From: a virus
Lineage: Duplodnaviria > Caudoviricetes
Strand: one strand, 5' to 3'
DNA: 64,000 nt
Virus record (IMG/VR): IMGVR_UViG_3300021197_001596
Span: 1,535 to 65,534 of that record
Under the pieces are notes generated by a model that made no database searches, had not been told where the DNA came from, and saw only the letters and a list, made by a program, of their open reading frames with translations. Position 1 is the first letter of the stretch; every line of letters begins with the position of its first letter. A program made the position numbers and the translations under genes. Below are positions 1-39,061 of this stretch, piece by piece.

Positions 1-3000
1 CTTTTCTTTTTAGATTGCTCTATAATTTCTAATATCATATTTTTTACAGTAGCGGCTGCAGCGCCGTAAACACCCGTCCCTCTGAGTAATGTGTCAAAAC
101 TACTGTTGCCTATTCTAAACAATCTTGATTGAGTTTCTTCATCATCTTCATCATCAAATAATAAAGCAAAAAGACCTTGCTGTAGAGCGGAGAATATAAT
201 ATTTTGTATTACGCTATAATATGCAATCTTACTAATATTTGTCTTCCAATCTCCGCGTCCATTAATTAAATCTAAAGCAGCTTTTTTAGTTAATCGAGCA
301 TATTGCATAGGGGTATTACCAAAAGCCAATATAAGGCGCCCTAATGAGCCCGCTTGCTGTGATGATATTCTATCAGGCCTAGCAGATTGTTGTGTTTCTT
401 CTGCTATTTCTTGAAAATCTGTAAATGCTTTTGATTCTGCTTCTTCTTTACTTAATCCTTCTTTTAAATATTTTTTAATTCTGTTTCTATAAAATGTTGC
501 ACCACCAGATGCAATAGCAAATGAGTCAGCTATTTGTGTTGGGGCAAATCCTATTTTAAGAATATAACTTAACATTGCTTTTGCTTTGTTTTGAGAGGTA
601 GCAGCTGCATTAGCAATTTCATCAGCATTTACGTCTGTTTGTAAACCAGAACGTCTTTGTTTTAAGAAATCTGAATTAAATAATGCTGTAAAATCTTTTA
701 CATATTGTGGAAAATTAGCTAAAGCTAATCCCGCATTAATTGGATTGTTATCACTAAAATTTATAAAGTTAACAGCTGATAACGTTTGTAGTACAGCAGA
801 TCTAGCGTTAAAGAACATGATTGTACCAATAGAGTTATTAGTCCAATCCATAAACGCCTTTTCAGCTTTACTGGCAGCACTTCTTCTATTTCGACCAGTA
901 CTCATCCGTATTAATATATCGTCTAGTGCCTCAACATATCTATCACCATATAATGCTTTTAACTTATTTTTATTACGGTCATTAAATATTTCTTTTACAT
1001 TTTCTTTCCATTCTGTTAAATATTCAGATCTTTTTACATCATTAACATATGACACAAGGTCTGTTGTAATATCTCCGGCTGACCAATCAGCGCTTGGTGG
1101 TGGATAACCTTCAGAATTTAAAGCTTTTAATCTATCAGCAAATTCTTTTAGCTTAGGATTATTTTTTACAATATCAAGATTTTCACTTACTGTTTGCGGA
1201 TCGTTTTCTAGCCCAGGTATTTCCATACCTTGAGACTTCCATATGTATATTCTAGCAGAGTCTTGATTCGTAAATCCTGAATCATTTTCTTTATTAAGTT
1301 TTCCAGGAACATCTTTGATAGCTTGTTTCTTAAGATCCATCCACTTGCGTAATGAATTTTGCTTAGCATTTTCAAATTGTTGAATAGCACGGGAAAATGG
1401 TCTGATTAAATTTTCATTATACCACGCCATTTGTTTATTACCAACTTCTCCTTTACCAATTGTTGCGTATAACAAACCAACAAAATCATCCGCTGAATAA
1501 GGTATAAAAAATTTTTTTCCTTTACCTCTTCCTAGAAGCTTTGCTTTAACTGGTGAAAACTCTTTTGTCCAATCGACTTTAGTAGTTGCTTGTAATAATT
1601 GATTAAATTGTTTATCTAAAGATGGCTTTGTAGGAGCATCTCTAAAATATATTAAATCATTATTTACATCTAATATACTACTATATCTTTCAACAGTATT
1701 TCCAGTTTTTGGTATAACATCTTTACCTTTTTTTCTACTTTGAACTAAATCAACAAAACTTTTATCTAAAACTTTTTTAACAGCGTTAGTAAATTCTAGT
1801 GCGCTATCTCCTTCTTTATGATTATCTATTAATTTTTCAAGCTGTTCTCTTAATGTTGCAATTGGCGGTGTGTGTTCATATGTAACTTCTTTAACACCTG
1901 TTTGATATGATCTTAATTTACCCATCATTCTAAGCGGCGTATCGCTAGCAGTATTACTTCCCCAAAGCTGTAAAAGATTTTTAGCGTCTTCTTTTCTTCC
2001 TTTAAAAGTTAATTTTGTTATTTCTTCTAAAACAACTCTTTTATTGTAATCAGCTTGATTATCAAAGTTATCTAAATTCTCTTTTATGTATTCAGAAAAA
2101 TTAGAATCTTTTGCAAAGTAACCGCTTTTTCCTGTCATTGTTTTAGGATTACTTTTTGGGTATAATTCTCTTATTTTTTTACCATCAAAATATATTGTAA
2201 AATTTACTTTCCCTGTTACTTTAAATCTTTTTAAATCTTCTTTTGATAGTACATTTTGATTTTTTATAAACTCAAATAATTCTTTTGAATTATTACCCAC
2301 TACAAAACCACCATTTTTAAGGGGATCCCCAATATATCGCATGAAGTTTAAAACATCCCCTACATTTTTTGTTTTTTGTAATTCAGCTATTTTATTGTCT
2401 ACAATTTTTTTAGCCCTAACTTCAGATATTGCTGTATCTAAATTTTTAACAAATTTTTCATTTGTTGGAATATCTCCAATATCTTCCGCTTTCTTAAATG
2501 TATTTTTAGCTGCATCTTCTAAAGCTTGTTGCTCTTCTTTATTTGGTAAAAGTTTTTTGGCTTCTTCAATTGCTTTTTTAAATGCTTTAGCAAAATTACC
2601 AGTGGCTTTAAAAGCGAGCTTAAATGCTTTTAAAAATGTTTTTGCTACTGCAATAGCTAGTTCAGGTACAACTAAAGAAACGTATAAGGTATCATTATTT
2701 TTTTGAAGATTATCTAAATAATTTATTGCTCTATCTATTTTTTCAGATATAATTTCAATAAAATTACTTGGAACTTCTTGTCCTTGTAATTCTTGAATAG
2801 CTTTAAATTTTTCAACAACCTCAGGCTTTGCTAATACACCCAATACATTATCTAATCCAACCTCATCCGCAATTACCTCTGCTAAAGAAGTTTTACGAGC
2901 ACCTTTAACATTACCAGGCGCATCTAAAAAGTATTTTATAAACTCTGCTTTTGCAATGTCTCTTTTCTTAAATACTTTTTTACCTTCAGCTGTGCGTTCT

Positions 3001-5225
3001 CTTAATTGTTTACCAGTTTCGGGATCAACAACAGCTTCGTTGAATTCTTTAAACTTTTTATTTATAGTTTCCTGCGGTATTGCTGGATATATTTTTTCAA
3101 AGTTGTCTCTTAAAAACTGCTCGTAAGATGCAGTACGCCCAAATACTTTTTTAAGAGAATTAGTTAATTCTGTTCTAAATCCTTTTGTAAGGGCGGGTTT
3201 AAATCCTTTATCAGTAACAGCAGGTAGCTTTGTGCCTAAAGTTTTTTCTACAGCCGTTACAATTTCATTTTGTGTATTTTCTGAAAGATTTAAATCTTGT
3301 GCTAATGCTTTTTTAACTTCTTGCTGAGCTTCTTGTTTAATTTCAATTTGAGTATCAGCTTCAACCGTATCAGTAACCCCCTTAGCCTCAGTTACATCAG
3401 CTTCAAAAGTTTCTTTTAATATTCTTTGTGCAGCTTCAATGCCTCTTGTAGATGCAAATTTATTTACATAAGCAGCTAAAGGCACTTTTGTATCAGGATC
3501 GTATGCATTGATTAAATCTAATATACCGCGTTTACCAGTGAGTATTTCATCAGTTATAAGTTCCATATCAAATCCAGGAACCATTCTATACTTCGATGCT
3601 ATACGCTTAGCCATCGGTTTATATAACTCTAATATTTCGGCAATTCCCTCTTTACCTTTTTCATCATATATTTCATTTACCTTTTTAGCTTCTTTGCTTG
3701 ACCGATCTTCAACTCTTTCTTTAACACCTTTAATTCTATTTTTAGCCTCTATATATGTTTTTTTGAAACCCTCTAAAGCTGTATTATGTTCTTTCGTAGA
3801 TATTTGGCCATCATCTAATTTTTTATTTAATGTTTTAACTCTTTGTACTTGCAATTTAGCAAGTTCATTCATGTTAGTTATATCATCAATATCTTTATTA
3901 GAAAAATTTGGTAATATAGAATTAGACTTAGTTATTCTACCATTAAGTCTTTCTTTTATTTCATCAATAGATTTTTGAATACCTTCTTTTACGGTATCAT
4001 CTTTTGCGTTTTGTAATTGTTGATTAAGATTAGAATATTCTTGTACATCTTTTTCAATAGCTTCTTGATCAACAGGTGCTCTTAAATTACTTACAGACCT
4101 TAAAGCATATCGAGAGCCTTTAATTCCACCACCACCTAAAAATCCTTGTAATCCACTTTCTATTCCTTCTTGCGAACTAATAGCAGATATAAATTCAAAA
4201 GCAGCTTGGGTTTTGCTTCCTGTTTCACCTAATTTTTGATTAGCCGCGGTGGCTCCAAATTGTAACATTTCTGTTATAGCTTCACTTTCACTAGCAGCGA
4301 GTATATCAGCAACTATAGCTTTTGTTGCTGCATTACCCATAGAATTTGTTAAAGCACCGGTCATTTTTCCAAAAGCAAAAAACTCAAGAGCTGATTGAAC
4401 ACCCGCTATTGCTATAGGAGCACCTAAATCAGCTTTATCTTCTTTTATAAGAGTGTCAAGTTTTACGCCTAGTCTTTTAGCTTTTCCCTCATTATAATCA
4501 ACATAATTTTCTGCTAAAAAATCCATGAAATATCCAGACCCAAAAGTACCACCCCCATATATAATTGATCCTAATGCGTTTATACCAGCACCTAGCATAG
4601 CTGAAAACCCTTTAACTATTTCTCCTTGCTTAAAACTTTCAATTATAGGTAAAGTTTCTTTTCTTCTTTCTTGTTGTTTTTTATACTCAGGAATTGCTTC
4701 TAATAATTCATTAGATCCCAATCCTTCTGTTAAAAAAGAATCTTCGCCATATTTGGCAACGTAAGCATCGACAACATCTTTACCAAATACACCTTGTGCT
4801 ATTGCTGAAGAAGCAATATCTAAACTAGCAGATTCTCCAGAATAAAATTCCCCAACTCTAGAAGCGTCTAATTTTAAAGTTGAAAATGCATTTGATAATG
4901 ATTCTTTTGCTGACAAGCTAGCAACTCTTTCTTCTGCCGCGGCATCTTCTGCAGCTTTACGATCAATCTCTTCTTGTGTAATTAATGTTGAATCAACTGT
5001 TCCTGTTTGAGGTGATTCCAAAGAAATATCTACCGATGGTGATTCCGTAACGGTTAACTCGGGTGCTGCATTTTCCTCCACATCCGCACCCGGTGATGTG
5101 GGAGTTGTCTTTCCCAGCTCCTTAATCTCATGTTGTTTGATATAATCATCAACAGTCATATTAGATTGCGCAGCAGCTGATTGTATTTGCTCGAGTGTAA
5201 ACTCTTCGTTATTAAATTCAAACAT
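1..5225 (-). CDS. Giant virion (DNA-ejection/cargo-type) protein, >1741 aa, 3' end outside the window
   Basis: Absent from the ORF track because it has no stop in the window. ATG at 5225 (MFEFNNEEFTLEQIQSAAAQ...); spot-checked segments read in the same frame down to position 1 (...MILEIIEQSKKK). It is the last visible gene of the tail/ejection cluster, mostly helical, with G/A-rich hydrophobic stretches and a sigma-region-2-like segment at 3418..3638. Confidence 0.8.
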   Translation of the reverse strand, partial: MFEFNNEEFTLEQIQSAAAQSNMTVDDYIKQHEIKELGKTTPTSPGADVEENAAPELTVTESPSVDISLESPQTGTVDSTLITQEEIDRKAAEDAAAEERVASLSAKESLSNAFSTLKLDASRVGEFYSGESASLDIASSAIAQGVFGKDVVDAYVAKYGEDSFLTEGLGSNELLEAIPEYKKQQERRKETLPIIESFKQGEIVKGFSAMLGAGINALGSIIYGGGTFGSGYFMDFLAENYVDYNEGKAKRLGVKLDTLIKEDKADLGAPIAIAGVQSALEFFAFGKMTGALTNSMGNAATKAIVADILAASESEAITEMLQFGATAANQKLGETGSKTQAAFEFISAISSQEGIESGLQGFLGGGGIKGSRYALRSVSNLRAPVDQEAIEKDVQEYSNLNQQLQNAKDDTVKEGIQKSIDEIKERLNGRITKSNSILPNFSNKDIDDITNMNELAKLQVQRVKTLNKKLDDGQISTKEHNTALEGFKKTYIEAKNRIKGVKERVEDRSSKEAKKVNEIYDEKGKEGIAEILELYKPMAKRIASKYRMVPGFDMELITDEILTGKRGILDLINAYDPDTKVPLAAYVNKFASTRGIEAAQRILKETFEADVTEAKGVTDTVEADTQIEIKQEAQQEVKKALAQDLNLSENTQNEIVTAVEKTLGTKLPAVTDKGFKPALTKGFRTELTNSLKKVFGRTASYEQFLRDNFEKIYPAIPQETINKKFKEFNEAVVDPETGKQLRERTAEGKKVFKKRDIAKAEFIKYFLDAPGNVKGARKTSLAEVIADEVGLDNVLGVLAKPEVVEKFKAIQELQGQEVPSNFIEIISEKIDRAINYLDNLQKNNDTLYVSLVVPELAIAVAKTFLKAFKLAFKATGNFAKAFKKAIEEAKKLLPNKEEQQALEDAAKNTFKKAEDIGDIPTNEKFVKNLDTAISEVRAKKIVDNKIAELQKTKNVGDVLNFMRYIGDPLKNGGFVVGNNSKELFEFIKNQNVLSKEDLKRFKVTGKVNFTIYFDGKKIRELYPKSNPKTMTGKSGYFAKDSNFSEYIKENLDNFDNQADYNKRVVLEEITKLTFKGRKEDAKNLLQLWGSNTASDTPLRMMGKLRSYQTGVKEVTYEHTPPIATLREQLEKLIDNHKEGDSALEFTNAVKKVLDKSFVDLVQSRKKGKDVIPKTGNTVERYSSILDVNNDLIYFRDAPTKPSLDKQFNQLLQATTKVDWTKEFSPVKAKLLGRGKGKKFFIPYSADDFVGLLYATIGKGEVGNKQMAWYNENLIRPFSRAIQQFENAKQNSLRKWMDLKKQAIKDVPGKLNKENDSGFTNQDSARIYIWKSQGMEIPGLENDPQTVSENLDIVKNNPKLKEFADRLKALNSEGYPPPSADWSAGDITTDLVSYVNDVKRSEYLTEWKENVKEIFNDRNKNKLKALYGDRYVEALDDILIRMSTGRNRRSAASKAEKAFMDWTNNSIGTIMFFNARSAVLQTLSAVNFINFSDNNPINAGLALANFPQYVKDFTALFNSDFLKQRRSGLQTDVNADEIANAAATSQNKAKAMLSYILKIGFAPTQIADSFAIASGGATFYRNRIKKYLKEGLSKEEAESKAFTDFQEIAEETQQSARPDRISSQQAGSLGRLILAFGNTPMQYARLTKKAALDLINGRGDWKTNISKIAYYSVIQNIIFSALQQGLFALLFDDEDDEETQSRLFRIGNSSFDTLLRGTGVYGAAAATVKNMILEIIEQSKKK
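5060..5115 (-). other. Putative -1 programmed ribosomal frameshift signal (slippery heptamer plus H-type pseudoknot)
   Basis: In-phase G_GGA_AAG at 5115..5109, 7-nt spacer, stem 1 CCACAUC/GAUGUGG, stem 2 CGGGUGC/GCACCCG, loops of 2, 1 and 11 nt. Confidence 0.75.
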
Positions 5226-5229
5226 ACTA

Positions 5230-6549
5230 TTATTCTCTATTTGTAAAGCCTATTGGCAAATTTCCAGTATCAATCGGTTTTGTGGTTGGCCTTCTTCCCG
5301 CTTCGCCCTGTTTTTGATATTCTGCAAACTGAGGGCTGGCAATTAATTTTCTTAATCCTTCTTCAAGTTTTTTACGCACGGCGGCTGTATACGATTTATT
5401 AGTTTGAATTTCATTAAACAATCTAGTTATATCGTTTTCATTTAATAAATCATAAGTTATGAAGCTTTCATTCCCATCGTCGTCATAAGTAGCAAGGCTA
5501 AATTCACGTGTAACTTCATTAAATTTAGTTTTATCACCTGAAACAGATCTAAAATATTCAGATGGATTATTTAAAAGTTTTGAGGCTTCTTGCGCTCCTA
5601 ATATAATATCGGTATCAGCGCTTTCCCCTTTGCCTTTTGCTTTTGCTTTTTCAAAAGCTAATTTTTCAGACACTTTTTTGTTGTAAAGCTCTTTAGATCT
5701 ATTGTAAGCATCGCGCGCAGCAGCTTTATATCTATCGGAAACAATTTTTACAAGATTATCTCTATCAATAGTATCAAACTGACCGTTATCTTCAAAATCA
5801 TCTTTTATTTTTTGTTCTAAGCCAAGCGGCAATTCGCCGTCCATTTCATCAACTAATACACTTGCTAAATCTGCATCTGTATATTTTATATTACTTACCT
5901 CATTATCAATTTTATTATTGAATGACGCTTCATCCCATCCTTGTAAACCATATTTTTCATATTCATTACCTACGGTTTGTAATTGCTGTAGATATGAGTC
6001 TGATCTTCTTGATATTGGCCTTGTATTAACTAAAGCACCAAAATCTTTTACTTCGCCATCATTAAATATAAATTGACCATCCTGTACGGTATAATTGCCC
6101 TTATATATATCATCAACCTTTGACATTAGTTCAGGGCTATTTAATTTACTTAAATCATCTTGCCCCATTTCAGCTAGGTTAGCAATCCATTGCTTAAAAT
6201 CACCAGCCTGTGTAGCTATCTTATTAACTTTACCCATAGCTTTACTAATAGCTAATTGTCTTTCAACAGGGGTTATATTTTTATCTTGAATAGCAGCAAT
6301 AGCTTCATTACGAATATTCATAGCTTCACCCATTGCGTATTCACGCATTTGCTCTGGAACTTGTGATTCATCAAGCATCGGTAATTGTGCAATAGCCTGA
6401 GCTTGTAATTCTTGTCGTCTATTTTCTACAGCACGACGTCTAAGTATAGCTTGTTCGCCTCGCATTACAGCCTCACCAACGACGTCTCCAACGTCGGTAA
6501 ACCTATTTGCTGCCATTCGCGCACCTCTAATTAATTGTTGATTTGCCAT
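5230..6549 (-). CDS. Putative ejection/internal virion protein (439 aa)
   Basis: Helical A/Q-rich N-terminus; lies between the small Gly/Ala-rich protein and the giant protein, as in podovirus ejection triplets. Confidence 0.6.
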   Translation of the reverse strand: MANQQLIRGARMAANRFTDVGDVVGEAVMRGEQAILRRRAVENRRQELQAQAIAQLPMLDESQVPEQMREYAMGEAMNIRNEAIAAIQDKNITPVERQLAISKAMGKVNKIATQAGDFKQWIANLAEMGQDDLSKLNSPELMSKVDDIYKGNYTVQDGQFIFNDGEVKDFGALVNTRPISRRSDSYLQQLQTVGNEYEKYGLQGWDEASFNNKIDNEVSNIKYTDADLASVLVDEMDGELPLGLEQKIKDDFEDNGQFDTIDRDNLVKIVSDRYKAAARDAYNRSKELYNKKVSEKLAFEKAKAKGKGESADTDIILGAQEASKLLNNPSEYFRSVSGDKTKFNEVTREFSLATYDDDGNESFITYDLLNENDITRLFNEIQTNKSYTAAVRKKLEEGLRKLIASPQFAEYQKQGEAGRRPTTKPIDTGNLPIGFTNRE

Positions 6550-7589: not shown

Positions 7590-10500
7590 TTATTCATTTT
7601 TAGATGGTAGATACATATCTCCTGTATAAAAGTTTTTCCATTGATCAGACTCAGCCGCATCTACCGTTGCTCTATTGTCTCCTATGTTTATAGTATATAA
7701 TGATGGAAAATTTGGGTTTTCAATATGATCCCAATATGCTTCATAATTACCTTGAAATACAAAATCCTTAAGAGAGTAATCATATTCATATTTTGGCTCT
7801 GGTTTTTTTGCTCCCGACGTTATTATCATCCTTGTAAAATCCCAATAACTAGCACCTAAACGTTTTAAATCAGCTGTTGGACCTGAAGCACCAACTATTT
7901 GTGGACTATACAAACGTAACCCATTAACATTTACATTTGAATATACTTGAACACCTATAGTAAGCGTACCTTTACCTTTCGAATCCATTTGTACTTTTGC
8001 TTCCCAAGTATTTAAAGAAGGATCAGTTACTTTCCAGCCGTATGTTTCTACGTGTTCAATTGCTTTTTGAGCATAAATACCTTTTGGATAAGAAGAAGAT
8101 GTTACGATCATTAATTGTTTATTTCTAGAATTGTTAGAAACATTATTTCCGGATACGTTCGATATATTTGTATATCTTTGGTCAAAATAAGTTCCTTTTA
8201 CTGTTATTTCTTTATTTGCATAAGCTGGATTTTCTAGATAAAACTCTTGGTATTGAATAATACCACCACTGTTAGACGGTATGCTTCTTGTGTAACCCAT
8301 GTTACCTTTATACGCAAGGTATGATGGATCATCGTCAAAATTTGATATTGAACAATTTGTTTCTTCTATAGTTATTGGAGCTTCTCCTTGCAAAAAATTG
8401 TAATGGCCTTTAGGTACAGCTGATCCACCTGCATTAAGAAATTTATTTTCATCACTATAAACAAGGTTTGGATTATCTTTTATATACACAGGAAATCTAT
8501 TACCGACATACGCTAAATCACCATCATTTGTTCTTAAATAAATAAGACTACCTTTTTTTAATGGTGAGTCTTTAGAAATAACATCTACAAAATCTACGTT
8601 GTCGTCATGAACTAAATTACATGGATTACTTGTGTGATCAAAATTTCCTATTTTTGCAAGATATTTGTTGAAAAAATTAGGATGATCGTTAACTGCTGTT
8701 ATTGTAAGTTCTGGTGCATAATAAGCGTTACCAACGGCATTGTTATTAAAATTGACTAGCATATTAACCGTAAGAGTTTTACCGTCCGCGCTAACTTCAA
8801 AAGTATTTGTTACTTGTTTTGAATCCCCAAATATATCAGTATAAGTACCAGCAGCTGCTTTTGTAAAATAACTACCTAAGTTTGTTATATTATACTTTGA
8901 TGTGCTAGTGTTATCTGGATCCCACCAATAAAATAAACTTTCGGGCATTTTAATCACATGCTGTATTAATTTATTTCCCGCAGATCCATCAGTAATCCAA
9001 TATCTACCAGAAGTTAAATCACTAAAAGAATTATTTACGTTTTGTATTCCATTACCTGCAAAAAAAGTTTCTAAACCATTAGATCCTTTCCATCTTTGTT
9101 TAAAACCATCAACATTACGTACAATACTGTCTATGTTTCTAAACGTTCTTTGATTTTGTGGTCCATTTTCAAAAGTTGAACCGGCTGGTGCAGTGTAAAG
9201 AGTTGAATTATATGATTCAGAACTTGCATACCCATTTATTTTAGTAAAGCCTGATGATTTTAATTGCGTTGCAAAAGCTATAAGAGCTCTTATTTCAACA
9301 CCGGTATTAGCTTCAAAAAGCTCCTCTAAAGGTCTGATTGTATATGTTTGATTTGTTGAGGGCGCAACAAAAGTTTTATTTTTAAAACCTACGACAATTT
9401 CACTATTGTTAACACTATTGTAAGAACCAAATGAAACTTTTTCATTAAAAGCAAAGGTTGCTGTAACATCGTTATTAGATGAGTCATATATTTTAAAAGG
9501 TATTATATTAGTAAATGTTTTTTTATTTTTATAACCAGAAGCCGCAGTTAAGGAAAAATGACGATTAATCATACTCGTGTGTGGCTTATTTGCTTTTGTT
9601 GTTACTGTATAAGGTACACTTGCACCGTTATATCCAGCTATAGTATAATTTGACGTAGCCGATCCACCAGCTATAGTATTAGAATAAGCAAAAGTTATTG
9701 TTACGTTTTTTTCTAATAAATTATTTAAGTTTAATTCAAAAAACTCTGATTCAATAAAACTAGTAGATTTTAAATTACCCTTTATTAATAAAGTATCATT
9801 AGTTGCTGTAGTTAAAGTAAACGTATTAAATGTTATTTTTGTCTCTGTGTCGTTACTATCAAAAACTATGTCGTCCATAACAGGAATCTTACTAAGATTA
9901 TAGCCAGTTCCATCTAATGTATATGAAAATGTAAAATCAATATCAGCAATATCATCTACATAACCAGAAACAATAACAGGACTATTTGTTAAAGACTGCG
10001 CGGTTGTAATGTTATTTCCAATATTAACAGTAAACGTTATATCATTGACATATCTAACTTTTCTAAAAATATTAAAAGTTTCATCACCAAAAGTACTAGA
10101 AAAAACAGTTCCCGACACTGTTTTCAACTTTACAGTATATGTCTGTGCAGTATCTCCAGCTGGAAAAACTAAATCTATATAAGACTTTAAAGTATCAGAT
10201 GGTATTTTCCCATTAACTGTTTTTATAACACTAGACCCTTCTAAAAAAACAAGTTCATATTCTGCGTTTTTTTCACCGTTTAATACCAACGTTCTAGTCT
10301 CACCATTATTATCAATGTCACTAGTGTTTAAATTTTTAGTAAATATTATTTTATCAGGTATTATTATTTTATGAGCTACAGCACTTATAGTGTAGTTTAT
10401 ATTTGCAGAATTTGTTCTTGGTATGGTTATAGTTTCTACAACTTCAACATTTCCATTATCTAATTTGTTTTTACTTATAGAAATTAAAGGATTATCTATA

Positions 10501-13500
10501 GTTATATCTTCAACATTAATATAATAACCATCTATAGGTTTTATTATTCTTTTATTTATCTGTTGAACCGTATTTGGATCTTCTGTTATTTGATAATTAC
10601 CGTTTCCAATATCGTCTGTTACAAAAGGACCTTCTACACTATAAGTACCACTTATTTTTACTGGTTTCAACACTGATTTTCCAGATAATGTAATATTTTT
10701 AGTTTCGTTATTAGATGGATTTAAAGATTCAAGATATTCTCCTTTTGTTTTTACAATAACGTTTGGTGAAGAGTTTTCAACAGTTATTAAATTACTAGGC
10801 GTTGTAAATTGTGTTTTTTCTATTAAATAACCATTAGTAGGAATTAATATTATTTCAACATCATCTATACTACCATCTTGTTTTATTTCTATCGATTGTT
10901 TTATATCACTACTCCAAGACTGACCATCAATTATTTTAACATTAAAATCATCAAGATCCTGTGCACCCACAGTAACATCATAATCTATTTCATTTGGTTT
11001 TCTTATTGATCTACCTATACCTTGTGTAGAAAAGTTTTTGTGATCTAGAGTATTTAGTTTTTTTGATTCTTGCGTTATATTGGTAAAAAATTTATTTTCT
11101 TTCGGTGTAAAAGTTGTTTCTAAACCAGTGACTTGATCAGTAGTTATTTTTTTTGCAACCCAACCGCTGGTGCCTTCGTATCCTAAAGTTTTATATTTTT
11201 TAATAACAGATGGATCTTCGTTTATTATGAATTCAACTTCAGAATTATATTGCGTACCATAGAAGTTATTTCTTAAAACATTTTCGCTGTCATGCCGCCA
11301 CAATTCACCATTTCTGTATGTATAATAAATATTATTCAAATACACAGAGTTTTCAGGAATAAAAGAAGCCCTTGTTACCCAACCGTTTACATCCTCAGAA
11401 AAACAAACAGTATCTAACCCATCAAAAGAAATATTATACAACTTTCTTCTTGCATCATAGCTTCCATAAAAAGTATCTGCAGTAAATAATCTTTGACGGA
11501 AAAAACTGTTCATATAGTTTTTTGATATTGGAGTTAATCCATCTTTTGATAATCTAATAATAACACCTCTAGTTTTGTCAGCAAAATAGCATCTAAAACC
11601 ATGTGAAGCAAAAGATTCTGGATGAGTACCAATACCAAACTCACCATTATATTCTATAGGATCTCCTATCACTCTGCTATCGGATATTAAATTAGAAGAA
11701 CCATTAGCATTGTAAAGAGCTGATTTATTAGCTAAAACCCTTAGTGTTTTATCTTCGCAAATTACAACCATAGAATCATTCCACCCATGCAACTTTTGTA
11801 TACTTCCATATGATGGTAAAAAATCTTTTGTTATTGGATTTGCCATATTAAACTCATTAGATCTATTAACACCAGATCTTGAGTTAACTATACCCGACCA
11901 TATTAAAGAATTAAACTTGTGTTCTTCTTTGAATGGTTCATCTAAAACAGTTGAAGCTTTGACACCATTGTCTATAAACACAGCATTATAATCATCTCTT
12001 ATTCTATTTGATTCAACACCATTACCAAAAGAAATACAATTATACCAGTTTAAGTTGTAATTCTCGTTGTGTGTGCTGATAGAAAGTATATCTGAAGCTT
12101 CAAAATATATATTTAATTCTGTTTTACTTTCTAACGGTTCTGTTTCAAATATAGCTGGCTCTTTTACTACTAGATTTTCTTCTACTCTCTCCTCTAATAT
12201 CTCCATCCTTGGTTCATTCATCCAAGTGTCGTCACCTCTTGTTACTACATCTTTTAATAATGGTTGAAAATTTCCATCTTCATCTATAAACCTAAAGTGT
12301 AATTCAGTATAACTTCTGCTTTTTACCAAAATACCACCACCATGCTTTGTAGCGTAAGCGGTTCTTAAAGTTTGACCAATTTCATATACCTTATCGTGAT
12401 GTGGAGTACCATCTGGATTTACAAATCTTACGAAATTACCAACTTTAGCTGTTTTTTGTAATTTATCAACTTCAGAATTTCTACGTCTCGTAGAGGCTTC
12501 TACTGTGATATTGTATTCTATTGAACCAGCATCGTGTCTTTTGCCTGTTTCATAAGTACTACCAGGCGTCACAGTTCCTCCCTTAGAAATAACAAAATCA
12601 TTTCTTGGGTTGGCAGATGCGCTATCTTTACCTCTGTTTATATTTTTCCATTTGTTAGCTCCAGATCTACCTGTACCACTAGCATCTTTTGATGAGTATA
12701 TACCTATCATGTTAAAATCAAATTTAACCAAATAGCTAACTCCTCCAATATCTTGTGTTATTATAGAATTTATTAAAGTAGAGTTAGATTTAAGTTTAAC
12801 AAAAAATCTTCCATCAAATTCTTTATCACCAGCGTCAATAAACTCTTCTAAGACGTTCATGCTAACCCCGAGATTTGTGTTTGGATCTCCTAGATTACCA
12901 CTTGTTTTATTATATATTATCTCTACATCTTCTCCAAAAGGTTCTTCAAAATCTATTTTTATTTCATTAGACCCAGCCGGATCTTGTGATAGTCTTTTTA
13001 TTTTATAAGCTTTTGATTCTTTACCTAAATACTCAAAACTTATATATCTACCAGGCCTTATTTCTTTAGTTTCTTCTAATTCTACACCGTTAGAACTACC
13101 ATTAGCTTGTTTCAACTGTACGCTTGCTCTTTCATTCAACGGTGCAGCATTACTAGCATCATCTTTGTTGGTTATTGTAACTCCTCCACCAGAGCCTTTA
13201 TAGTCATCAGTAAAAACTAAATTACCCAATGATCTTACGGTTCTTTTTCTAGCAGTTATAAATTCAGGCGGTTCAGCGGATATGTCTATTATTTTATATC
13301 TATTTTCAGTAGAATCAACAGCGTTATTATCTCCATGATTCTTTTTTAACAACAAATAATGTTCATCTGTGACTTTGTTCCTTTCTGAAGAAGGAAAACT
13401 TATATACATAAAACCGTTTTCAACATCATTGTAAAAACGGTCTGCTGCTAAGTTATAGAATTCACCAGATGTGTCTTTTATAAAATACCTATAGTGTGTT

Positions 13501-15371
13501 GCCCAAGGTGGGGGTGGTGTTGTAATAGATGCAGATATTCTGTTTTGTGCAGACGACTTTGATTTTGGTACAGTTATAACACCTGTATCATTTGAAAAAA
13601 CAGGTGTTTGTCTGTTATATTCATCTGAATAAACAACGCCTAGTTGATAGTTGCGATTTGACTTAACACTTATTCTTCTGTCTGCATTTGCGGTATTAAG
13701 TTTAACATCAAAATTAGGGTCTTTAAATACATCATAATTCTGTATATAATTACCATAAACAACTCTGTTAGCAGTAACTTCTTGTGCTTTTGCTTTCCTT
13801 GGTACATTGTCCCACTGTCTTAGTAACTGGTCATTAGCTACCAACGATTTAATTTGCTCTTTTCTTATTGTAAAAGAATTTTCAAAATCTATTCTTTTTT
13901 TAGTAGTTAATATATATATATTGTTATTTCTGGTCTCTTTAAATATTATTTCAATATCCTCTACTTCATCTGATCCTAAATCAAAATCTTCTAATAAAAC
14001 CTTACGGACTTGGTTTATCATGCCGTAATTGTAGGCCTCTTTACCATCATATTTAAAACCGTTTCTGTTTACTTTTAAGTTTGGATAAAAAGCTGGTTGT
14101 GTAAAAGGCGAGAAAACAGAATATTCTCCGTTTTTATATTTCCATCTATATGCAAATCTCACAAAAGCTAGTTCGTATATAGGATCTTCTTCTATTAAAT
14201 TTGCCGTAAATAGATGACTTTGTTTAACAGGGTCGTCTGAATCTATGTTAGAAATAACAACTTTAATACTTTTATTGGTAGCATCAATGCTTTGTATCCT
14301 ACATTCTAATGATAAATCAGCGTCTTCTGTAACAAACAAAGCAGATTGACCAACAACCCAATTAGGTATATCACCAAAATCAACTATATCAACTTCATCA
14401 CCGGCTATTTTATCAACAAAATTAACCTGTGCTGTAATCGTAGTATTACCAGTTATGTCAGTATCAAATAAAGTTAAGTTAGGAGCCTTTAGAGGAGCTT
14501 TCTTTATTACAGATATGTCATCTTCATTTATTGGTCTGTAATCAATTTTAAAAGCACCATTTGAGTCTTTATACTTGTATGATATCTGCGTTTGATTAGC
14601 TATGTGTTTGTAATTTTTAAATTCAGATATATTTATTCTTCTGGGCTGATTTACATTATCTGTCCAAAACAAAAGACCATCAATTATATTTATACCTGTT
14701 ATTAAATTATTTTTTGAAAAATTTAAAAAACCAGAATCGGTATATGTAAAATTTATATCTAAATTTCCAAAATGTTTTCCATTGTATGGTATATTTTTAA
14801 ACTCAATACTTTCATTGTTATTATTTAAAACACTTGTGTTTTTTGGTGCTGTAATTTTTAAATCAATTTCTGAGCACTCTATATCTATGTTACTATGTGT
14901 TAAACCATATTTTTGAGGAGAATCGGGCGTTGCCTTTTCTAAGTTTTTGCCTAATAAACTATTAAACTCTAACTCACTATATGAAAAAGATAACTCGCCT
15001 TCTACATTTGAATATACAGAAACATCTTTTATTGTAATTGTTTGAATTGTTTTTTCATCTAACAATACAGGTTTTACTTCTTTAGTCTTTTCATCAAACT
15101 CATAAATAGCATCTATAGAATCAGAAGTTACTATCCAATATATTTTATCATTTTTACTATCAGATATACTGCCTAATGTTTTTGCATTTTGTAACTGTAG
15201 ATCAGACAAAAGTTCATTACCTAACGTGTTTTCTATTGATCCAACATCAGATCCTTCTGATGATGAAATTTGAATATTTAAAGCATCAGTATATTCACCA
15301 TTAGGTATAAGTCTATCGTCCAGGTCTTTGTTCATTCTACCTGACGTAAAAGTATGCTTTAGTTCTGCCAT
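7590..15371 (-). CDS. Tail stabilization/nozzle-like protein with long beta-rich C-terminal extension (2593 aa)
   Basis: N-terminus MAELKHTFTSGRMNKDLDDRLIPNGEYTDALNI and internal LLFWTDN.NQPRRINI, FAYRWKY.NGEYS and YFADKTRGVIIRL motifs, recalled from crAss-like stabilization proteins; follows the ring-protein genes. Confidence 0.75.
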   Translation of the reverse strand: MAELKHTFTSGRMNKDLDDRLIPNGEYTDALNIQISSSEGSDVGSIENTLGNELLSDLQLQNAKTLGSISDSKNDKIYWIVTSDSIDAIYEFDEKTKEVKPVLLDEKTIQTITIKDVSVYSNVEGELSFSYSELEFNSLLGKNLEKATPDSPQKYGLTHSNIDIECSEIDLKITAPKNTSVLNNNNESIEFKNIPYNGKHFGNLDINFTYTDSGFLNFSKNNLITGINIIDGLLFWTDNVNQPRRINISEFKNYKHIANQTQISYKYKDSNGAFKIDYRPINEDDISVIKKAPLKAPNLTLFDTDITGNTTITAQVNFVDKIAGDEVDIVDFGDIPNWVVGQSALFVTEDADLSLECRIQSIDATNKSIKVVISNIDSDDPVKQSHLFTANLIEEDPIYELAFVRFAYRWKYKNGEYSVFSPFTQPAFYPNLKVNRNGFKYDGKEAYNYGMINQVRKVLLEDFDLGSDEVEDIEIIFKETRNNNIYILTTKKRIDFENSFTIRKEQIKSLVANDQLLRQWDNVPRKAKAQEVTANRVVYGNYIQNYDVFKDPNFDVKLNTANADRRISVKSNRNYQLGVVYSDEYNRQTPVFSNDTGVITVPKSKSSAQNRISASITTPPPPWATHYRYFIKDTSGEFYNLAADRFYNDVENGFMYISFPSSERNKVTDEHYLLLKKNHGDNNAVDSTENRYKIIDISAEPPEFITARKRTVRSLGNLVFTDDYKGSGGGVTITNKDDASNAAPLNERASVQLKQANGSSNGVELEETKEIRPGRYISFEYLGKESKAYKIKRLSQDPAGSNEIKIDFEEPFGEDVEIIYNKTSGNLGDPNTNLGVSMNVLEEFIDAGDKEFDGRFFVKLKSNSTLINSIITQDIGGVSYLVKFDFNMIGIYSSKDASGTGRSGANKWKNINRGKDSASANPRNDFVISKGGTVTPGSTYETGKRHDAGSIEYNITVEASTRRRNSEVDKLQKTAKVGNFVRFVNPDGTPHHDKVYEIGQTLRTAYATKHGGGILVKSRSYTELHFRFIDEDGNFQPLLKDVVTRGDDTWMNEPRMEILEERVEENLVVKEPAIFETEPLESKTELNIYFEASDILSISTHNENYNLNWYNCISFGNGVESNRIRDDYNAVFIDNGVKASTVLDEPFKEEHKFNSLIWSGIVNSRSGVNRSNEFNMANPITKDFLPSYGSIQKLHGWNDSMVVICEDKTLRVLANKSALYNANGSSNLISDSRVIGDPIEYNGEFGIGTHPESFASHGFRCYFADKTRGVIIRLSKDGLTPISKNYMNSFFRQRLFTADTFYGSYDARRKLYNISFDGLDTVCFSEDVNGWVTRASFIPENSVYLNNIYYTYRNGELWRHDSENVLRNNFYGTQYNSEVEFIINEDPSVIKKYKTLGYEGTSGWVAKKITTDQVTGLETTFTPKENKFFTNITQESKKLNTLDHKNFSTQGIGRSIRKPNEIDYDVTVGAQDLDDFNVKIIDGQSWSSDIKQSIEIKQDGSIDDVEIILIPTNGYLIEKTQFTTPSNLITVENSSPNVIVKTKGEYLESLNPSNNETKNITLSGKSVLKPVKISGTYSVEGPFVTDDIGNGNYQITEDPNTVQQINKRIIKPIDGYYINVEDITIDNPLISISKNKLDNGNVEVVETITIPRTNSANINYTISAVAHKIIIPDKIIFTKNLNTSDIDNNGETRTLVLNGEKNAEYELVFLEGSSVIKTVNGKIPSDTLKSYIDLVFPAGDTAQTYTVKLKTVSGTVFSSTFGDETFNIFRKVRYVNDITFTVNIGNNITTAQSLTNSPVIVSGYVDDIADIDFTFSYTLDGTGYNLSKIPVMDDIVFDSNDTETKITFNTFTLTTATNDTLLIKGNLKSTSFIESEFFELNLNNLLEKNVTITFAYSNTIAGGSATSNYTIAGYNGASVPYTVTTKANKPHTSMINRHFSLTAASGYKNKKTFTNIIPFKIYDSSNNDVTATFAFNEKVSFGSYNSVNNSEIVVGFKNKTFVAPSTNQTYTIRPLEELFEANTGVEIRALIAFATQLKSSGFTKINGYASSESYNSTLYTAPAGSTFENGPQNQRTFRNIDSIVRNVDGFKQRWKGSNGLETFFAGNGIQNVNNSFSDLTSGRYWITDGSAGNKLIQHVIKMPESLFYWWDPDNTSTSKYNITNLGSYFTKAAAGTYTDIFGDSKQVTNTFEVSADGKTLTVNMLVNFNNNAVGNAYYAPELTITAVNDHPNFFNKYLAKIGNFDHTSNPCNLVHDDNVDFVDVISKDSPLKKGSLIYLRTNDGDLAYVGNRFPVYIKDNPNLVYSDENKFLNAGGSAVPKGHYNFLQGEAPITIEETNCSISNFDDDPSYLAYKGNMGYTRSIPSNSGGIIQYQEFYLENPAYANKEITVKGTYFDQRYTNISNVSGNNVSNNSRNKQLMIVTSSSYPKGIYAQKAIEHVETYGWKVTDPSLNTWEAKVQMDSKGKGTLTIGVQVYSNVNVNGLRLYSPQIVGASGPTADLKRLGASYWDFTRMIITSGAKKPEPKYEYDYSLKDFVFQGNYEAYWDHIENPNFPSLYTINIGDNRATVDAAESDQWKNFYTGDMYLPSKNE

Positions 15372-38743: not shown

Positions 38744-39061
38744 TTAACAATTCCATCTTCTTCGTGCAGCTCTACCTCTTTCCCCAGTCCAACCTTTAGA
38801 TCTAGCGCAAAATGATTTTCTTCTCTTTGCGGCTTTGCTACCAGGTTTTAGTTTACTAGGTGGAGTGGTTACAGCTGTTTTTAATTTACTTCCAGGGTTA
38901 TCTGCTTTATATTTATTTACACCCTTTTGAGACATTCCACCTCCAGCTTTTCCGCCCGTACCCGTGGGGTTGGCTTTATTATAATAGCCTAAAGATTTTT
39001 TCTTTGATGGAGCGGGAGGTTTCTTCATAAGAGGAGATACCCTTTTAGTTATTGGTTCCAT
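38744..39061 (-). CDS. Small basic phage protein (105 aa)
   Basis: GGM..KG...Y...NPGSKLKTAVT...AKRRKSFCAR...RRWNC motif, recalled as common in aquatic phages. Confidence 0.65.
   Translation of the reverse strand: MEPITKRVSPLMKKPPAPSKKKSLGYYNKANPTGTGGKAGGGMSQKGVNKYKADNPGSKLKTAVTTPPSKLKPGSKAAKRRKSFCARSKGWTGERGRAARRRWNC

What the first reader, a model, noticed from the sequence alone, without database searches (positions are those of the whole stretch)
4993..5115. -1 frameshift cassette near the start of the giant gene, producing a 77-aa Cys-rich alternative product
Seen: in-phase G_GGA_AAG at codons 38-39, a 7-nt spacer and a perfect 7+7 bp H-type pseudoknot (CCACAUC/GAUGUGG; CGGGUGC/GCACCCG), forming a GC island in an AT-rich gene. 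The -1 frame stays open for 38 codons: DNSHITGCGCGGKCSTRVNRYGITIGRYFFGITSNRNS*. Known: GGGAAAG is the lambda G-T slippery site, and pseudoknots 5-9 nt downstream stimulate -1 frameshifting. Inference: unlike tail-chaperone frameshifts, which extend a protein, this one would truncate a >1700-aa protein. That could throttle its copy number and make a small protein with the same N-terminus and a possible metal-binding H..CxCxxxC plus aromatic beta-hairpin tail.
Basis: partly seen in the sequence, partly recalled or inferred. Interest (0 to 1): 0.8.

Follow-up and report, generated by a model that had tools for sequence, protein, structure and literature searches.

The report
Conserved frameshift cassette in phage giant gene
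Near the start of a giant virion-protein gene of a marine flavobacterial phage lies a slippery site plus RNA pseudoknot, kept in dozens of related phages, that most likely diverts some ribosomes into a hidden overlapping frame to make a small second protein.

Summary
On the minus strand, codons 38-39 of a 1878-aa gene form an in-phase G_GGA_AAG. Seven nt downstream lie two interleaved perfect 7-bp stems, and the -1 frame stays open for 38 codons.

It is not chance. I found 59 distinct versions of the cassette in 96 loci from marine viral and metagenome contigs. Each sits 33-61 codons into a giant ORF and follows at least four unrelated N-terminal leaders.
- **Slip site:** GGGAAAG in 51, GGATTTT at the same position in 7, GGGAAAT in 1.
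- **Stem 1:** it covaries. One pair is AU14/GC12/UA12/GU9 and is never unpaired in 47 sequences.
- **-1 ORF:** it has no start codon (0 of 42). Its peptide C.CGG.C...YG..G.YFFG shows coding periodicity in the -1 phase.

Best reading: a programmed -1 ribosomal frameshift makes a 77-aa trans-frame protein, with the shared leader joined to an aromatic beta-hairpin tail, alongside the giant protein. Its function is unknown, and the proposed metal binding is unsupported.

Cultured relatives (phi38:1, phi19:3, elemoA) carry an A9-A11 run with a -1 aromatic tail at the equivalent position. I found no annotation or published description.

The parts
3..5225 (-). 0-frame giant ORF. The window holds 1741 aa; the full gene is 1878 aa in the 65.5-kb genome. 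It is the last gene of the late structural operon.
   Evidence: The syntenic last giant genes of the relatives phi38:1, phi19:3 and elemoA are annotated as (virion) structural proteins.
5109..5225 (-). Shared N-terminus, codons 1-39 (MFEFNNEEFTLEQIQ...ELGK). This is the 'type A' leader domain common to both products.
   Evidence: In the AlphaFold2 model residues 1-36 have pLDDT 83-88, with two short strands and two helices. Codon periodicity is normal for the 0 frame.
5122..5124 (-). TAA stop that closes the -1 frame four codons upstream of the slip site.
   Evidence: In 42 of 42 distinct cassettes the -1 frame is closed 1-22 codons upstream, with no ATG, GTG or TTG in between.
5109..5115 (-). 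Slippery heptamer G_GGA_AAG, in phase with the 0 frame (codons 38-39).
   Evidence: Kept in 51 of 59 distinct cassettes; replaced at the same position by GGATTTT in 7 and GGGAAAT in 1.
5102..5108 (-). 7-nt spacer (ACAACTC).
5095..5101 (-). Pseudoknot stem 1, 5' arm (CCACATC).
   Evidence: It covaries with the 3' arm.
5086..5092 (-). Pseudoknot stem 2, 5' arm (CGGGTGC), lying inside the loop of stem 1.
5078..5084 (-). Pseudoknot stem 1, 3' arm (GATGTGG).
   Evidence: Pair 26-39 is AU14/GC12/UA12/GU9, pair 27-38 is CG35/GC8/UG2 plus 2 unpaired, and pair 21-44 is CG39/UA3 plus 5 unpaired.
5067..5077 (-). Loop 3 (AGGAAAATGCA), A-rich. It carries the third Cys codon of the -1 frame.
   Evidence: T52, G53 and A55 are invariant; column 54 is C or T, a change that is synonymous only in the -1 frame.
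5060..5066 (-). Pseudoknot stem 2, 3' arm (GCACCCG).
   Evidence: The six inner pairs form in 47 of 47 sequences, with changes almost all to G-U. The outermost pair is broken in 15 of 47.
4996..5109 (-). -1 frame ORF of 38 codons (the trans-frame 'tail'), overprinted on a disordered linker of the giant protein.
   Evidence: The 0-frame residues 40-81 have pLDDT below 50.
5005..5058 (-). Part of the tail predicted to form an aromatic beta-hairpin (tail residues 18-35, VNRYGITIGRYFFGITSN).
   Evidence: In the AlphaFold2 model the strands are residues 18-25 and 28-35, with block pLDDT about 80. This part lies outside both search patterns and shows -1-phase periodicity.
4993..4995 (-). TGA stop of the -1 ORF.

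Best explanation
This is a programmed -1 ribosomal frameshift signal. Ribosomes translating the giant virion-protein gene reach G_GGA_AAG at codons 38-39 while the H-type pseudoknot 7 nt downstream resists unwinding. A fraction slip back one base (GGA to GGG in the P site, AAG to AAA in the A site). They then read 38 codons of an overprinted -1 ORF and stop.

Two proteins with the same folded 36-39-aa N-terminal leader result:
- the 1878-aa giant protein, from the 0 frame;
- a 77-aa trans-frame protein whose tail ends in a conserved aromatic beta-hairpin (YG..G.YFFG).

Shown here: the signal, its conservation, covariation in stem 1, the lack of an independent start, and purifying selection on the -1 peptide.

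Inferred:
- that the event is ribosomal;
- its efficiency;
- that the small protein uses the shared leader to dock to the same partner as the giant (probably internal or ejected) virion protein, at a ratio fixed by frameshift efficiency;
- that each shift also removes one ribosome from the giant ORF.
For: 2. **Recurrence by leader homology.** Searches by N-terminal protein similarity gave 20 loci. All 19 that reach far enough carry an in-phase GGGAAAG and an open -1 tail.
3. **Recurrence by DNA pattern.** A degenerate pattern found 36 viral contigs, and all 36 have the downstream YG..G.[YW]F.G tail, which is not part of the pattern. The same pattern hit 57 places in 596 Gb of prokaryote genomes, and 0 of 57 have the tail.
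4. **Recurrence by tail peptide.** This search added 55 viral loci. The total is 59 distinct cassettes in 96 loci (one further, L002, was dropped by my filter). All lie 33-61 codons after an ATG, apart from two contig-truncated leaders. All sit at the head of 0-frame ORFs of 945-2538 aa where complete. They follow at least four unrelated leader types.
5. **Open frames.** The 0 and -1 frames are open in 59 of 59. The +1 frame is open in 12, and the antisense frames in 26, 30 and 4.
6. **No independent start.** There is no ATG, GTG or TTG between the upstream -1 stop and the heptamer in 0 of 42.
7. **Phase switch.** In the leader, summed entropy by 0-frame codon position is 29.4/19.8/36.7, which is normal. 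In the hairpin block it is 7.8/4.5/13.7 by -1-frame position, so 0-frame second positions vary most. Gly, Phe and Cys codons are invariant at -1 positions 1-2 and free at position 3. Mean amino-acid identity there is 0.64 in the -1 frame against 0.42 in the 0 frame.
8. **Structure.** In 47 sequences 94.2% of cells pair, against 30.7-53.5% when partners are slid. There are 36 cells with a double-sided change, and 0 of 500 shuffles reached that. An independent group with a 9-nt insert keeps both stems (97.5% paired) in a shifted register. Five sequences shift the S1 register with a compensating G21-C45 pair.
9. **Natural slip-site variants.** GGATTTT and GGGAAAT still allow the A-site tRNA to re-pair in the -1 frame.
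10. **Heptamer in E. coli.** G_GGA_AAG is described as highly shift-prone there (passage read in PMC5009743).
11. **tRNA set of a stand-in genome.** A Flavobacteriales genome shows tRNA-Lys(UUU) and no tRNA-Lys(CUU) among its 38 tRNA hits, one of which is unresolved.
Against: - **No direct evidence.** There is no product, reporter assay or ribosome profiling, so the efficiency is unknown.
- **Stem 2 is weakly supported.** It rests mainly on conservation and G-U changes. Only one double-sided change was seen, and its outermost pair fails in 15 of 47. My DNA pattern also pre-selected parts of both S2 arms, and the peptide pattern pre-selected the Cys codons.
- **Non-independence.** The sequences are related by descent, so cell counts overstate the number of independent events.
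- **Fold energy.** The nested fold of this one sequence is unremarkable (z = -0.65).
- **Host.** It is unknown. The tRNA check used a stand-in MAG.
- **Dual coding.** It could itself hold many nucleotides constant within the pseudoknot.
- **No cultured carrier.** No cultured phage in the 50,697-record collection carries this cassette.
Confidence: 0.85

Rival explanations
1. Chance co-occurrence: a slippery-looking heptamer and two inverted repeats in a GC-richer Pro/Gly/Ala linker, with no function.
For: A 6+6 pseudoknot after some heptamer arises by chance about 0.24 times per shuffled genome, and a 7+7 one 0.02 times. The nested fold energy is ordinary. The region encodes a low-complexity linker in the 0 frame.
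Against: There are 59 distinct cassettes with the same architecture behind unrelated leaders. S1 covaries. The -1 frame shows coding periodicity. 0 of 57 pattern hits in prokaryote genomes carry the tail, against 36 of 36 in viral contigs.
Confidence: 0.01
2. The conserved element is a non-coding RNA or DNA signal inside the gene, such as a translational pause or attenuator, an mRNA-stability element or a recombination junction between leader and body modules. On this view the -1 ORF is not translated.
For: The pseudoknot region is highly conserved at the nucleotide level (mean column identity 86-91%). The cassette sits exactly at the boundary between interchangeable leaders and divergent protein bodies.
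Against: Downstream of the pseudoknot, where no structure is proposed, substitutions follow -1-frame codon periodicity. Gly codons there use all four third bases. The -1 frame is open in 59 of 59, against 4-30 of 59 for the non-coding frames. The -1 stop position is conserved within subgroups.
Confidence: 0.06
3. The -1 ORF is expressed, but not by ribosomal slippage at the heptamer. The alternatives are internal initiation at a non-canonical start, or RNA-polymerase slippage producing a +1-nt transcript.
For: Cultured relatives have A9-A11 runs at the equivalent position. Such runs are classic transcriptional-slippage sites (general knowledge; review PMC5009743, title and abstract seen).
Against: The -1 ORF has no ATG, GTG or TTG upstream of the heptamer in 0 of 42. 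GGGAAAG has only three-base runs, too short for efficient polymerase slippage (established knowledge). An invariant in-phase tandem-slippage heptamer followed at 6-7 nt by a covarying pseudoknot is the signature of ribosomal -1 frameshifting.
Confidence: 0.05
4. The frameshift is purely regulatory: it throttles synthesis of the giant protein, and the tail peptide has no function of its own.
For: Every shift removes a ribosome from an 1878-codon ORF at the end of an operon.
Against: A function-less tail would not keep YG..G.[YW]F.G across 59 variants with synonymous drift. The A-run relatives would not keep aromatic/Gly -1 tails ending at conserved stops. Throttling may still be a side effect.
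Confidence: 0.03

Closest known systems
Phage lambda G/GT tail-assembly-chaperone frameshift and its relatives in long-tailed phages
   Same: A -1 ribosomal frameshift in a late structural operon of a dsDNA phage. It gives two proteins with a common N-terminus in a fixed ratio. The slippery heptamer is the same (its use by lambda is recalled; the review passage read says G_GGA_AAG is highly shift-prone in E. coli and describes the G/GT ratio).
   Different: In lambda the shift lies near the 3' end and extends a small protein, and no pseudoknot is required. The genes lie between the major tail and tape-measure genes of long-tailed phages. Here the shift is at codon 38 of a giant gene and truncates. 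A covarying H-type pseudoknot follows it, and the relatives are podoviruses. There is no sequence similarity to any Pfam family.
E. coli dnaX tau/gamma
   Same: A -1 frameshift on a heptamer ending in A_AAG gives a shorter product that shares the N-terminus with the full-length protein (established knowledge).
   Different: In dnaX the frameshift adds one residue before a stop, and its stimulators are an upstream Shine-Dalgarno-like element and a stem-loop. Here the shift adds a conserved 31-42-aa domain and uses a pseudoknot. The upstream AAGGAG in the window is not conserved (AAAGAG in L001 and L002).
Overprinted trans-frame products of eukaryotic RNA viruses: potyvirus P3N-PIPO, influenza PA-X, cardiovirus 2B*, alphavirus TF
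   Same: A short ORF is hidden inside a very long ORF and has no start of its own. It is reached by slippage at a conserved motif and gives 'N-terminal domain plus short new tail'. It is detectable by loss of 0-frame synonymous variation. P3N-PIPO is reached through an A-run, which mirrors the A-run relatives here (PMC4761962 abstract seen; the rest is recalled).
   Different: Those are RNA viruses of eukaryotes with unrelated proteins, and P3N-PIPO uses polymerase slippage. This one is a dsDNA phage of (probably) Flavobacteriia. I know of no phage example of this layout, and my searches found none.
IS3-family (e.g. IS911, IS3) -1 frameshift signals
   Same: These are bacterial-type -1 frameshift signals with a heptamer ending in A_AAG, and in some members a downstream pseudoknot acts as stimulator (recalled).
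   Different: There the shift fuses OrfA to OrfB to make the longer transposase. The proteins are unrelated and the context is a mobile element, not a virion gene.
Polyvalent (LPD/MuF-type) giant phage proteins
   Same: A giant multi-domain protein encoded at the end of a phage structural module. The nearest named clusters in the ESM Atlas carry LPD38, LPD3, PBECR3 or MuF_C domains.
   Different: The Atlas scores are 0.77-0.79, which is lead level only. Pfam finds no LPD or MuF domain in the window's protein. No frameshift cassette is known to me for that class.

Membership tests
Canonical -1 programmed ribosomal frameshift signal | X_XXY_YYZ heptamer in phase with the upstream ORF | tested here: met
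   G_GGA_AAG at codons 38-39. In phase in 52 of 59 distinct cassettes (51 GGGAAAG and 1 GGGAAAT). Seven have G_GAU_UUU, where only the A-site tRNA re-pairs perfectly.
Canonical -1 programmed ribosomal frameshift signal | Stimulatory RNA structure starting about 5-9 nt downstream | tested here: met
   The spacer is 7 nt (6 nt in the insert group). S1 covariation: 36 cells with a double-sided change, reached by 0 of 500 shuffles; 94.2% of cells paired against at most 53.5% when slid. S2 is conserved and always pairs over 6 bp, but shows little covariation.
Canonical -1 programmed ribosomal frameshift signal | -1 ORF open, without its own initiation codon, and under protein-level selection | tested here: met
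   Open in 59 of 59. No start codon in 0 of 42. -1-phase periodicity and higher -1-frame identity.
Canonical -1 programmed ribosomal frameshift signal | Trans-frame protein demonstrated, and frameshifting dependent on heptamer and structure | not testable with these tools
   This needs reporters, mass spectrometry or ribosome profiling.
Lambda G/GT-type tail assembly chaperone frameshift | Two overlapping small ORFs between the major tail and tape-measure genes, with the shift near the 3' end extending the product | tested here: not met
   The shift is at codon 38 of a 1878-aa ORF and truncates. The relatives are podoviruses with a P22-like portal. No chaperone family matched.
   Three Cys are (near-)invariant, but two of the three searches pre-selected for them and they overlap pseudoknot arms. 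The consensus His is in 28 of 42. The AlphaFold2 pLDDT there is below 50. The best Pfam hit, Zn_ribbon_GRF, has E = 0.076, below the cut-off. The motif is absent from the A-run relatives.
Polyvalent protein (LPD / MuF) family, for the giant 0-frame product | Recognisable LPD, MuF or effector domains | tested here: inconclusive
   Pfam finds none at E <= 0.01. PHROGs finds none. There is no PDB sequence match. The Atlas neighbours score 0.77-0.79 only.
Any described RNA family (Rfam 15) | Match to a curated covariance model | tested here: not met
   No match at E <= 1 in window 4800-5400.

The most novel reading that the evidence does not exclude
An old, unannotated overprinted gene may be shared by several families of Flavobacteriia podoviruses: the uncultured marine clade of this window, Callevirus, Baltivirus, Elemovirus and their kin.

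On this reading the last giant virion/ejection-protein gene always begins with a small docking leader, followed by a recoding site that feeds a -1-frame aromatic beta-hairpin tail. Different lineages reach the same hidden ORF by three devices:
- G_GGA_AAG plus an H-type pseudoknot;
- G_GAU_UUU plus the same pseudoknot;
- a bare A9-A11 run.

The small protein would be a stoichiometric partner of the giant protein, for example a membrane-inserting or assembly anchor that shares its docking domain.
Probability: 0.4. Interest if true: 0.85.

Novelty: new variant of a known kind. Interest (0 to 1): 0.75.

Why it matters
**Recoding.** Programmed frameshifts in tailed phages are known almost only as tail-chaperone and capsid extensions. 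Here a textbook heptamer plus H-type pseudoknot, rare in bacterial systems, sits at the very start of a giant virion gene. It gives access to a hidden, conserved ORF, a layout so far associated with eukaryotic RNA viruses (PA-X, P3N-PIPO, 2B*).

**Annotation.** At least 59 phage variants encode a protein that no gene caller can find. No homologue of the tail turned up among 5.8 billion predicted proteins.

**Frameshift mechanics.** The family is a natural mutagenesis series: three slip sites, two pseudoknot registers and many compensatory pairs. This makes it useful for studying frameshift stimulation in Bacteroidota-type translation.

**Biology of giant phage proteins.** It points to an unknown small partner of the giant internal or ejected proteins of abundant marine flavobacterial phages.

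Tried and rejected
- **Cultured-phage collection.** blastn of 2.5 kb around the site, tblastn of the tail, blastn of the 136-nt cassette and tblastn of the upstream 439-aa protein all gave no match.
- **Family libraries.** PHROGs and Pfam on the giant protein and its neighbours gave nothing useful. Pfam on 42 tails and 10 leaders gave only sub-threshold hits. The PDB sequence search with the giant protein had 0 hits. Rfam had 0 hits.
- **In-frame or separately called tail.** A search of 5.8 billion proteins found none among longer ones and none of similar length. The tool notes this is weak evidence.
- **Homo-oligomer prediction.** Four copies of the tail gave the verdict 'no answer' (score 0.02). 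This is not evidence either way.
- **Fold search.** The search with the N-terminal 130-aa model matched only the long helix 75-130 (Z up to 5.6). The leader domain was effectively not tested.
- **ESM Atlas.** The giant protein's neighbours all score below 0.9, so they are leads only.
- **Profile comparison of tails.** Pseudoknot-class tails against A-run tails aligned over only 7 columns (RYGITI), probability 3.5%. Homology of the two tail classes is therefore not established statistically.
- **More A-run relatives.** The peptide search returned only the three contigs already known.
- **Upstream Shine-Dalgarno-like stimulator.** AAGGAG lies just 5' of the heptamer in the window but reads AAAGAG in L001 and L002, so I rejected it.
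- **Antisense gene.** The antisense frames are open in only 4-30 of 59, so I rejected it.
- **Lipobox reading of ITGC.** I rejected it by inspection: there is no signal peptide and the residues are not conserved.


Full report
**1. What is in the window**

The window is all but the first 1534 bases of a 65,534-bp, 33% GC, single-contig virus record. It encodes a primase-helicase, ribonucleotide reductase, thymidylate synthase, a GroEL-like chaperonin and a tail fibre with an S74 chaperone domain. A long minus-strand late operon holds four giant ORFs.

Its large terminase is 62% identical to that of an uncultured podovirus (MW202828). It is 31-45% identical to those of Flavobacterium phage elemo, Cellulophaga phages phi38:1, phi40:1 and phi19:3, and Tenacibaculum phage Gundel. 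The host is therefore probably a member of the Flavobacteriia.

The gene in question is the last of the late operon. It has ATG at 5225 on the minus strand and is 1878 aa in the full genome. The syntenic last giant genes of the cultured relatives are annotated as (virion) structural proteins.

**2. The observation**

- G_GGA_AAG at 5115-5109, in phase at codons 38-39;
- a 7-nt spacer;
- S1, CCACATC/GATGTGG;
- S2, CGGGTGC/GCACCCG, interleaved with S1, with loops of 2, 1 and 11 nt;
- a -1 ORF of 38 codons ending at TGA 4995-4993.

The -1 frame is closed by TAA four codons upstream of the slip site and has no start codon.

An exact 7+7 pseudoknot 4-9 nt after any XXXYYYZ occurs once in the real genome, at this site. 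It occurred 20 times in 1000 shuffled genomes; the 6+6 version occurred twice in the real genome and 240 times in 1000. That is unusual for one genome but not across a large scan. A nested fold of the single sequence is unremarkable (z = -0.65). The decision therefore had to come from homologues.

**3. Homologues**

Three independent routes were used.

*(a) N-terminal protein similarity.*
- This gave 4 viral and 16 metagenome loci.
- Similarity stops after 29-90 residues, so the bodies of the giant proteins differ.
- Of the 20 loci, 19 reach far enough. All 19 have an in-phase GGGAAAG and an open -1 tail. The other, L020, is cut after 95 nt.

*(b) A degenerate DNA pattern* (heptamer plus parts of S2 and loop 3).
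- It hit 36 viral contigs.
- All 36 show the downstream peptide motif YG..G.[YW]F.G, which is not in the pattern.
- All sit 33-61 codons after an ATG at the head of a long 0-frame ORF.
- As a control, the same pattern hit 57 places in 596 Gb of prokaryote genomes, and 0 of 57 had the tail.

*(c) The tail peptide.*
- Back-translated, it gave 55 viral loci.

Pooled, there are 59 distinct cassettes in 96 loci. The searches overlap on contigs, and L002, whose tail reads ECGC, was dropped by my filter but is included in the alignments.

Leaders fall into at least four unrelated types:
- MFEFN..YTLEQIQ, 34 cassettes;
- MPxFK..YNIP, 13 or more;
- MDEKALEYAF.., 61 aa long, 3;
- MNELELIVQRMI.., 2 or more.

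None of the ten leaders scanned matches Pfam above threshold. Complete 0-frame ORFs are 945-2538 aa.

**4. Is the -1 frame translated?**

Across the 59 cassettes the 0 and -1 frames are open in 59 of 59. The +1 frame is open in 12 and the three antisense frames in 26, 30 and 4.

In 42 distinct tails the -1 frame is closed 1-22 codons upstream of the heptamer. None has ATG, GTG or TTG in between.

The decisive signal is codon phase:

| Region | Summed entropy by codon position | Source |
|---|---|---|
| Leader (32 type-A sequences, codons 2-31) | 29.4 / 19.8 / 36.7 by 0-frame position (normal) | |
| 12-codon hairpin block downstream of the pseudoknot | 7.8 / 4.5 / 13.7 by -1-frame position | |

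In that block the most variable sites are therefore the second positions of the 0 frame. Individual Gly, Phe, Tyr and Cys codons are invariant at -1 positions 1-2 and free at position 3; one Gly uses all four codons. Mean pairwise amino-acid identity in the block is 0.64 in the -1 frame and 0.42 in the 0 frame (861 pairs).

The AlphaFold2 model of the 0-frame N-terminus gives:
- a confident small domain for residues 1-36 (pLDDT 83-88);
- no confident structure for residues 40-81 (pLDDT below 50).

Residues 40-81 are exactly the overlapped stretch. The hidden ORF is thus overprinted on a linker that tolerates change. The tail model, built with 42 sequences, has mean pLDDT 60. It shows a beta-hairpin at residues 18-35 (about 80) and an unmodelled Cys-rich part.

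**5. The RNA structure**

In the 47 distinct sequences without the insert, 94.2% of 658 cells form standard pairs, against 30.7-53.5% when the 3' partners are slid by 1-3 columns. Thirty-six cells carry a change on both sides, and 0 of 500 shuffles reached that (the first set of 31 gave the same picture).

Stem 1, which neither search pattern constrained on its 5' side, carries the covariation:
- pair 26-39 is AU14/GC12/UA12/GU9 and is never unpaired;
- pair 27-38 is CG35/GC8/UG2, with 2 unpaired;
- pair 21-44 is CG39/UA3, with 5 unpaired.

Five sequences (L034, L140, L159, L170, L171) move the 5' arm by one base and compensate with a new G21-C45 pair.

Stem 2 pairs over its six inner positions in 47 of 47. 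Its changes are almost all to G-U, with one G-C to A-U. Its outermost pair fails in 15 of 47. Parts of both arms were pre-selected by my DNA pattern, and both arms are dual-coding. The support for S2 is therefore conservation rather than covariation.

A second group, 10 sequences at the time of counting and 11 later, has a 9-nt insertion. It keeps both stems (97.5% of cells paired) with S1 in a different register, CCTCCR/YGGRGG, and a 6-nt spacer.

The counts treat sequences as independent, which they are not. Even so, four pair types at one position need at least three separate events. No Rfam family matches.

**6. Slip-site variants**

Seven cassettes have GGATTTT and one has GGGAAAT at the position of GGGAAAG, followed by the same pseudoknot and tail. 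In G_GAU_UUU the A-site tRNA re-pairs perfectly (UUU to UUU) and the P-site tRNA only partly. That a different slippery sequence replaces the first at the same spot is what a frameshift site predicts. A pure coding or structural constraint would not predict it.

A review states that G_GGA_AAG is highly shift-prone in E. coli (passage read in PMC5009743).

In one uncultured Flavobacteriales genome used as a stand-in host, the 38 tRNA hits include tRNA-Lys(UUU) and tRNA-Gly(UCC) but no tRNA-Lys(CUU). One hit is cut by a contig end and remains unresolved. This is only a lead, because the true host is unknown. The phage itself encodes no tRNA.

**7. Mechanism and function**

*Shown:*
- a conserved tandem-slippage site;
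- a covarying downstream pseudoknot at canonical spacing;
- a start-less -1 ORF under purifying selection;
- a shared folded leader.

*Inferred:*
- ribosomes shift -1 at codons 38-39 with unknown efficiency;
- this makes a 77-aa protein (39 aa leader plus 38 aa tail) beside the giant protein.

Because leaders are interchangeable while the tail is constant, I take the leader to be a lineage-specific docking module. The tail would be the constant functional part.

My best guess is that the small protein binds the same partner as the giant, probably internal or ejected, virion protein in a ratio set by the frameshift. Its basic, aromatic hairpin would then contact membrane, DNA or a conserved virion component. 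This last step is speculation, with no test available here. The homo-oligomer job gave no verdict and the fold search was uninformative for the leader.

The metal-binding idea is weakened by four points:
- the consensus His is in 28 of 42 tails;
- the first two Cys codons lie in pseudoknot arms;
- the searches pre-selected for Cys;
- the A-run relatives lack the motif.

One point stands in its favour. The third Cys codon lies in loop 3 and varies only TGC/TGT, which is synonymous in the -1 frame and Ala/Val in the 0 frame. Some protein-level selection on Cys is therefore likely.

**8. A wider pattern (partly followed)**

The cultured or complete relatives lack this cassette. At the equivalent place in their last giant gene they have a run of 9-11 A, followed by an open frame one base back from the giant frame that is rich in aromatic, Gly and basic residues:

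| Phage or contig | A-run | -1 tail relative to the giant frame |
|---|---|---|
| phi38:1 gp101 | A10, codons 34-36 | KKKRKRRAFGIEFYLWSGSFKFGWFRL* |
| Contigs L175-L177 | A10 | KKKRSYGI[ST][FI]P..GG...CIGWFRH* |
| MW202828 | A11 | ..KYKRYCIKLGRYSICIERKY* |
| elemoA gp90 | A10 | open -1 tail of about 50 codons |
| phi19:3 | A9 | ..SAIGFGASSRSWFFGWCTK* |

In L177 the leader is of the same type as a pseudoknot-class cassette (L032). In phi19:3 the A9 run separates the annotated gp128 (the leader) from the giant gp129, which lies in another frame.

The resemblance to the window's RYGITIGRYFFG is suggestive. It is not established: hhalign aligned 7 columns with probability 3.5%, and a further search found no more members.

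**9. Comparison with what is known, and novelty**

By every sequence-level criterion I could test, the signal itself is a classical -1 PRF signal. It is not a member of the lambda G/GT family, because the position, direction and gene context all differ.

Functionally it most resembles dnaX, which also gives a shorter product. It resembles even more the overprinted trans-frame products of RNA viruses (P3N-PIPO, PA-X, 2B*); that comparison is recalled, except for the abstract of PMC4761962 seen.

I found no description of it:
- four literature searches and a term search of the main text of the North Sea flavophage paper returned nothing on it;
- no protein resembling the tail turned up among 5.8 billion predicted proteins;
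- no Pfam, PHROG or Rfam family matches.

**10. Verdict**

My confidence that this is a functional programmed -1 frameshift expressing the hidden ORF is about 0.85. Confidence in any particular function of the small protein is low. I rate it a new variant of a known kind, with interest 0.75.

Noticed in passing
L116:17423-17600 (phi38:1 gp101); L115:16564-16900 (elemoA gp90); L114:12320-12050 minus (MW202828); L175-L177 around 1000-1170: The syntenic last giant structural gene of cultured or complete relatives has an A10-A11 run at codons 34-65. An open -1 frame of 25-50 codons follows, rich in aromatic, Gly and basic residues and ending at a conserved stop. This may be a second route (polymerase or ribosomal slippage) to a related tail.
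   Followed up: partly
L117:25056-25700 (Cellulophaga phage phi19:3 gp128/gp129): The annotated 102-aa 'structural protein' gp128 and the giant gp129 look like one leader-plus-giant gene split at an A9 run. The giant frame is -1 of the leader frame, and an aromatic tail lies -1 of the giant frame. This is either a homopolymer sequencing error or genuine recoding.
   Followed up: partly
L146, L147, L153, L155, L157, L162, L163 (slip site about 6 nt into each reference used): Seven cassettes replace G_GGA_AAG by the non-canonical G_GAU_UUU at the same position, with an unchanged pseudoknot and tail. One (L154) has G_GGA_AAU.
   Followed up: yes
window 3-5225 compared with L001-L019: Only the first 29-90 residues of the giant proteins align between phages. 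Leaders, cassette and protein bodies appear to be shuffled as modules (at least four leader types on one cassette), so the cassette marks a mosaic boundary.
   Followed up: partly
window 40651-42201 (minus strand): A phage-encoded GroEL-like chaperonin (Cpn60_TCP1, E = 2.2e-51). The relatives phi38:1 and phi19:3 are annotated with a GroES co-chaperonin next to the terminase.
   Followed up: no
window 7590-15371, 26548-33528, 33515-38317 (minus strand): Three further giant ORFs (2593, 2326 and 1600 aa) lie in the same late operon. None has the cassette or a long A-run in the first 110 codons, which I read in the 0 and -1 frames.
   Followed up: partly
window 39928-39937: A T10 homopolymer, the longest run in the window, lies between ORFs 39049-39534 and 39957-40397. 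Its meaning is unknown.
   Followed up: no
window 5116-5121 (minus strand): AAGGAG lies immediately 5' of the heptamer and looks like a Shine-Dalgarno stimulator. It reads AAAGAG in L001 and L002 and is not conserved.
   Followed up: yes
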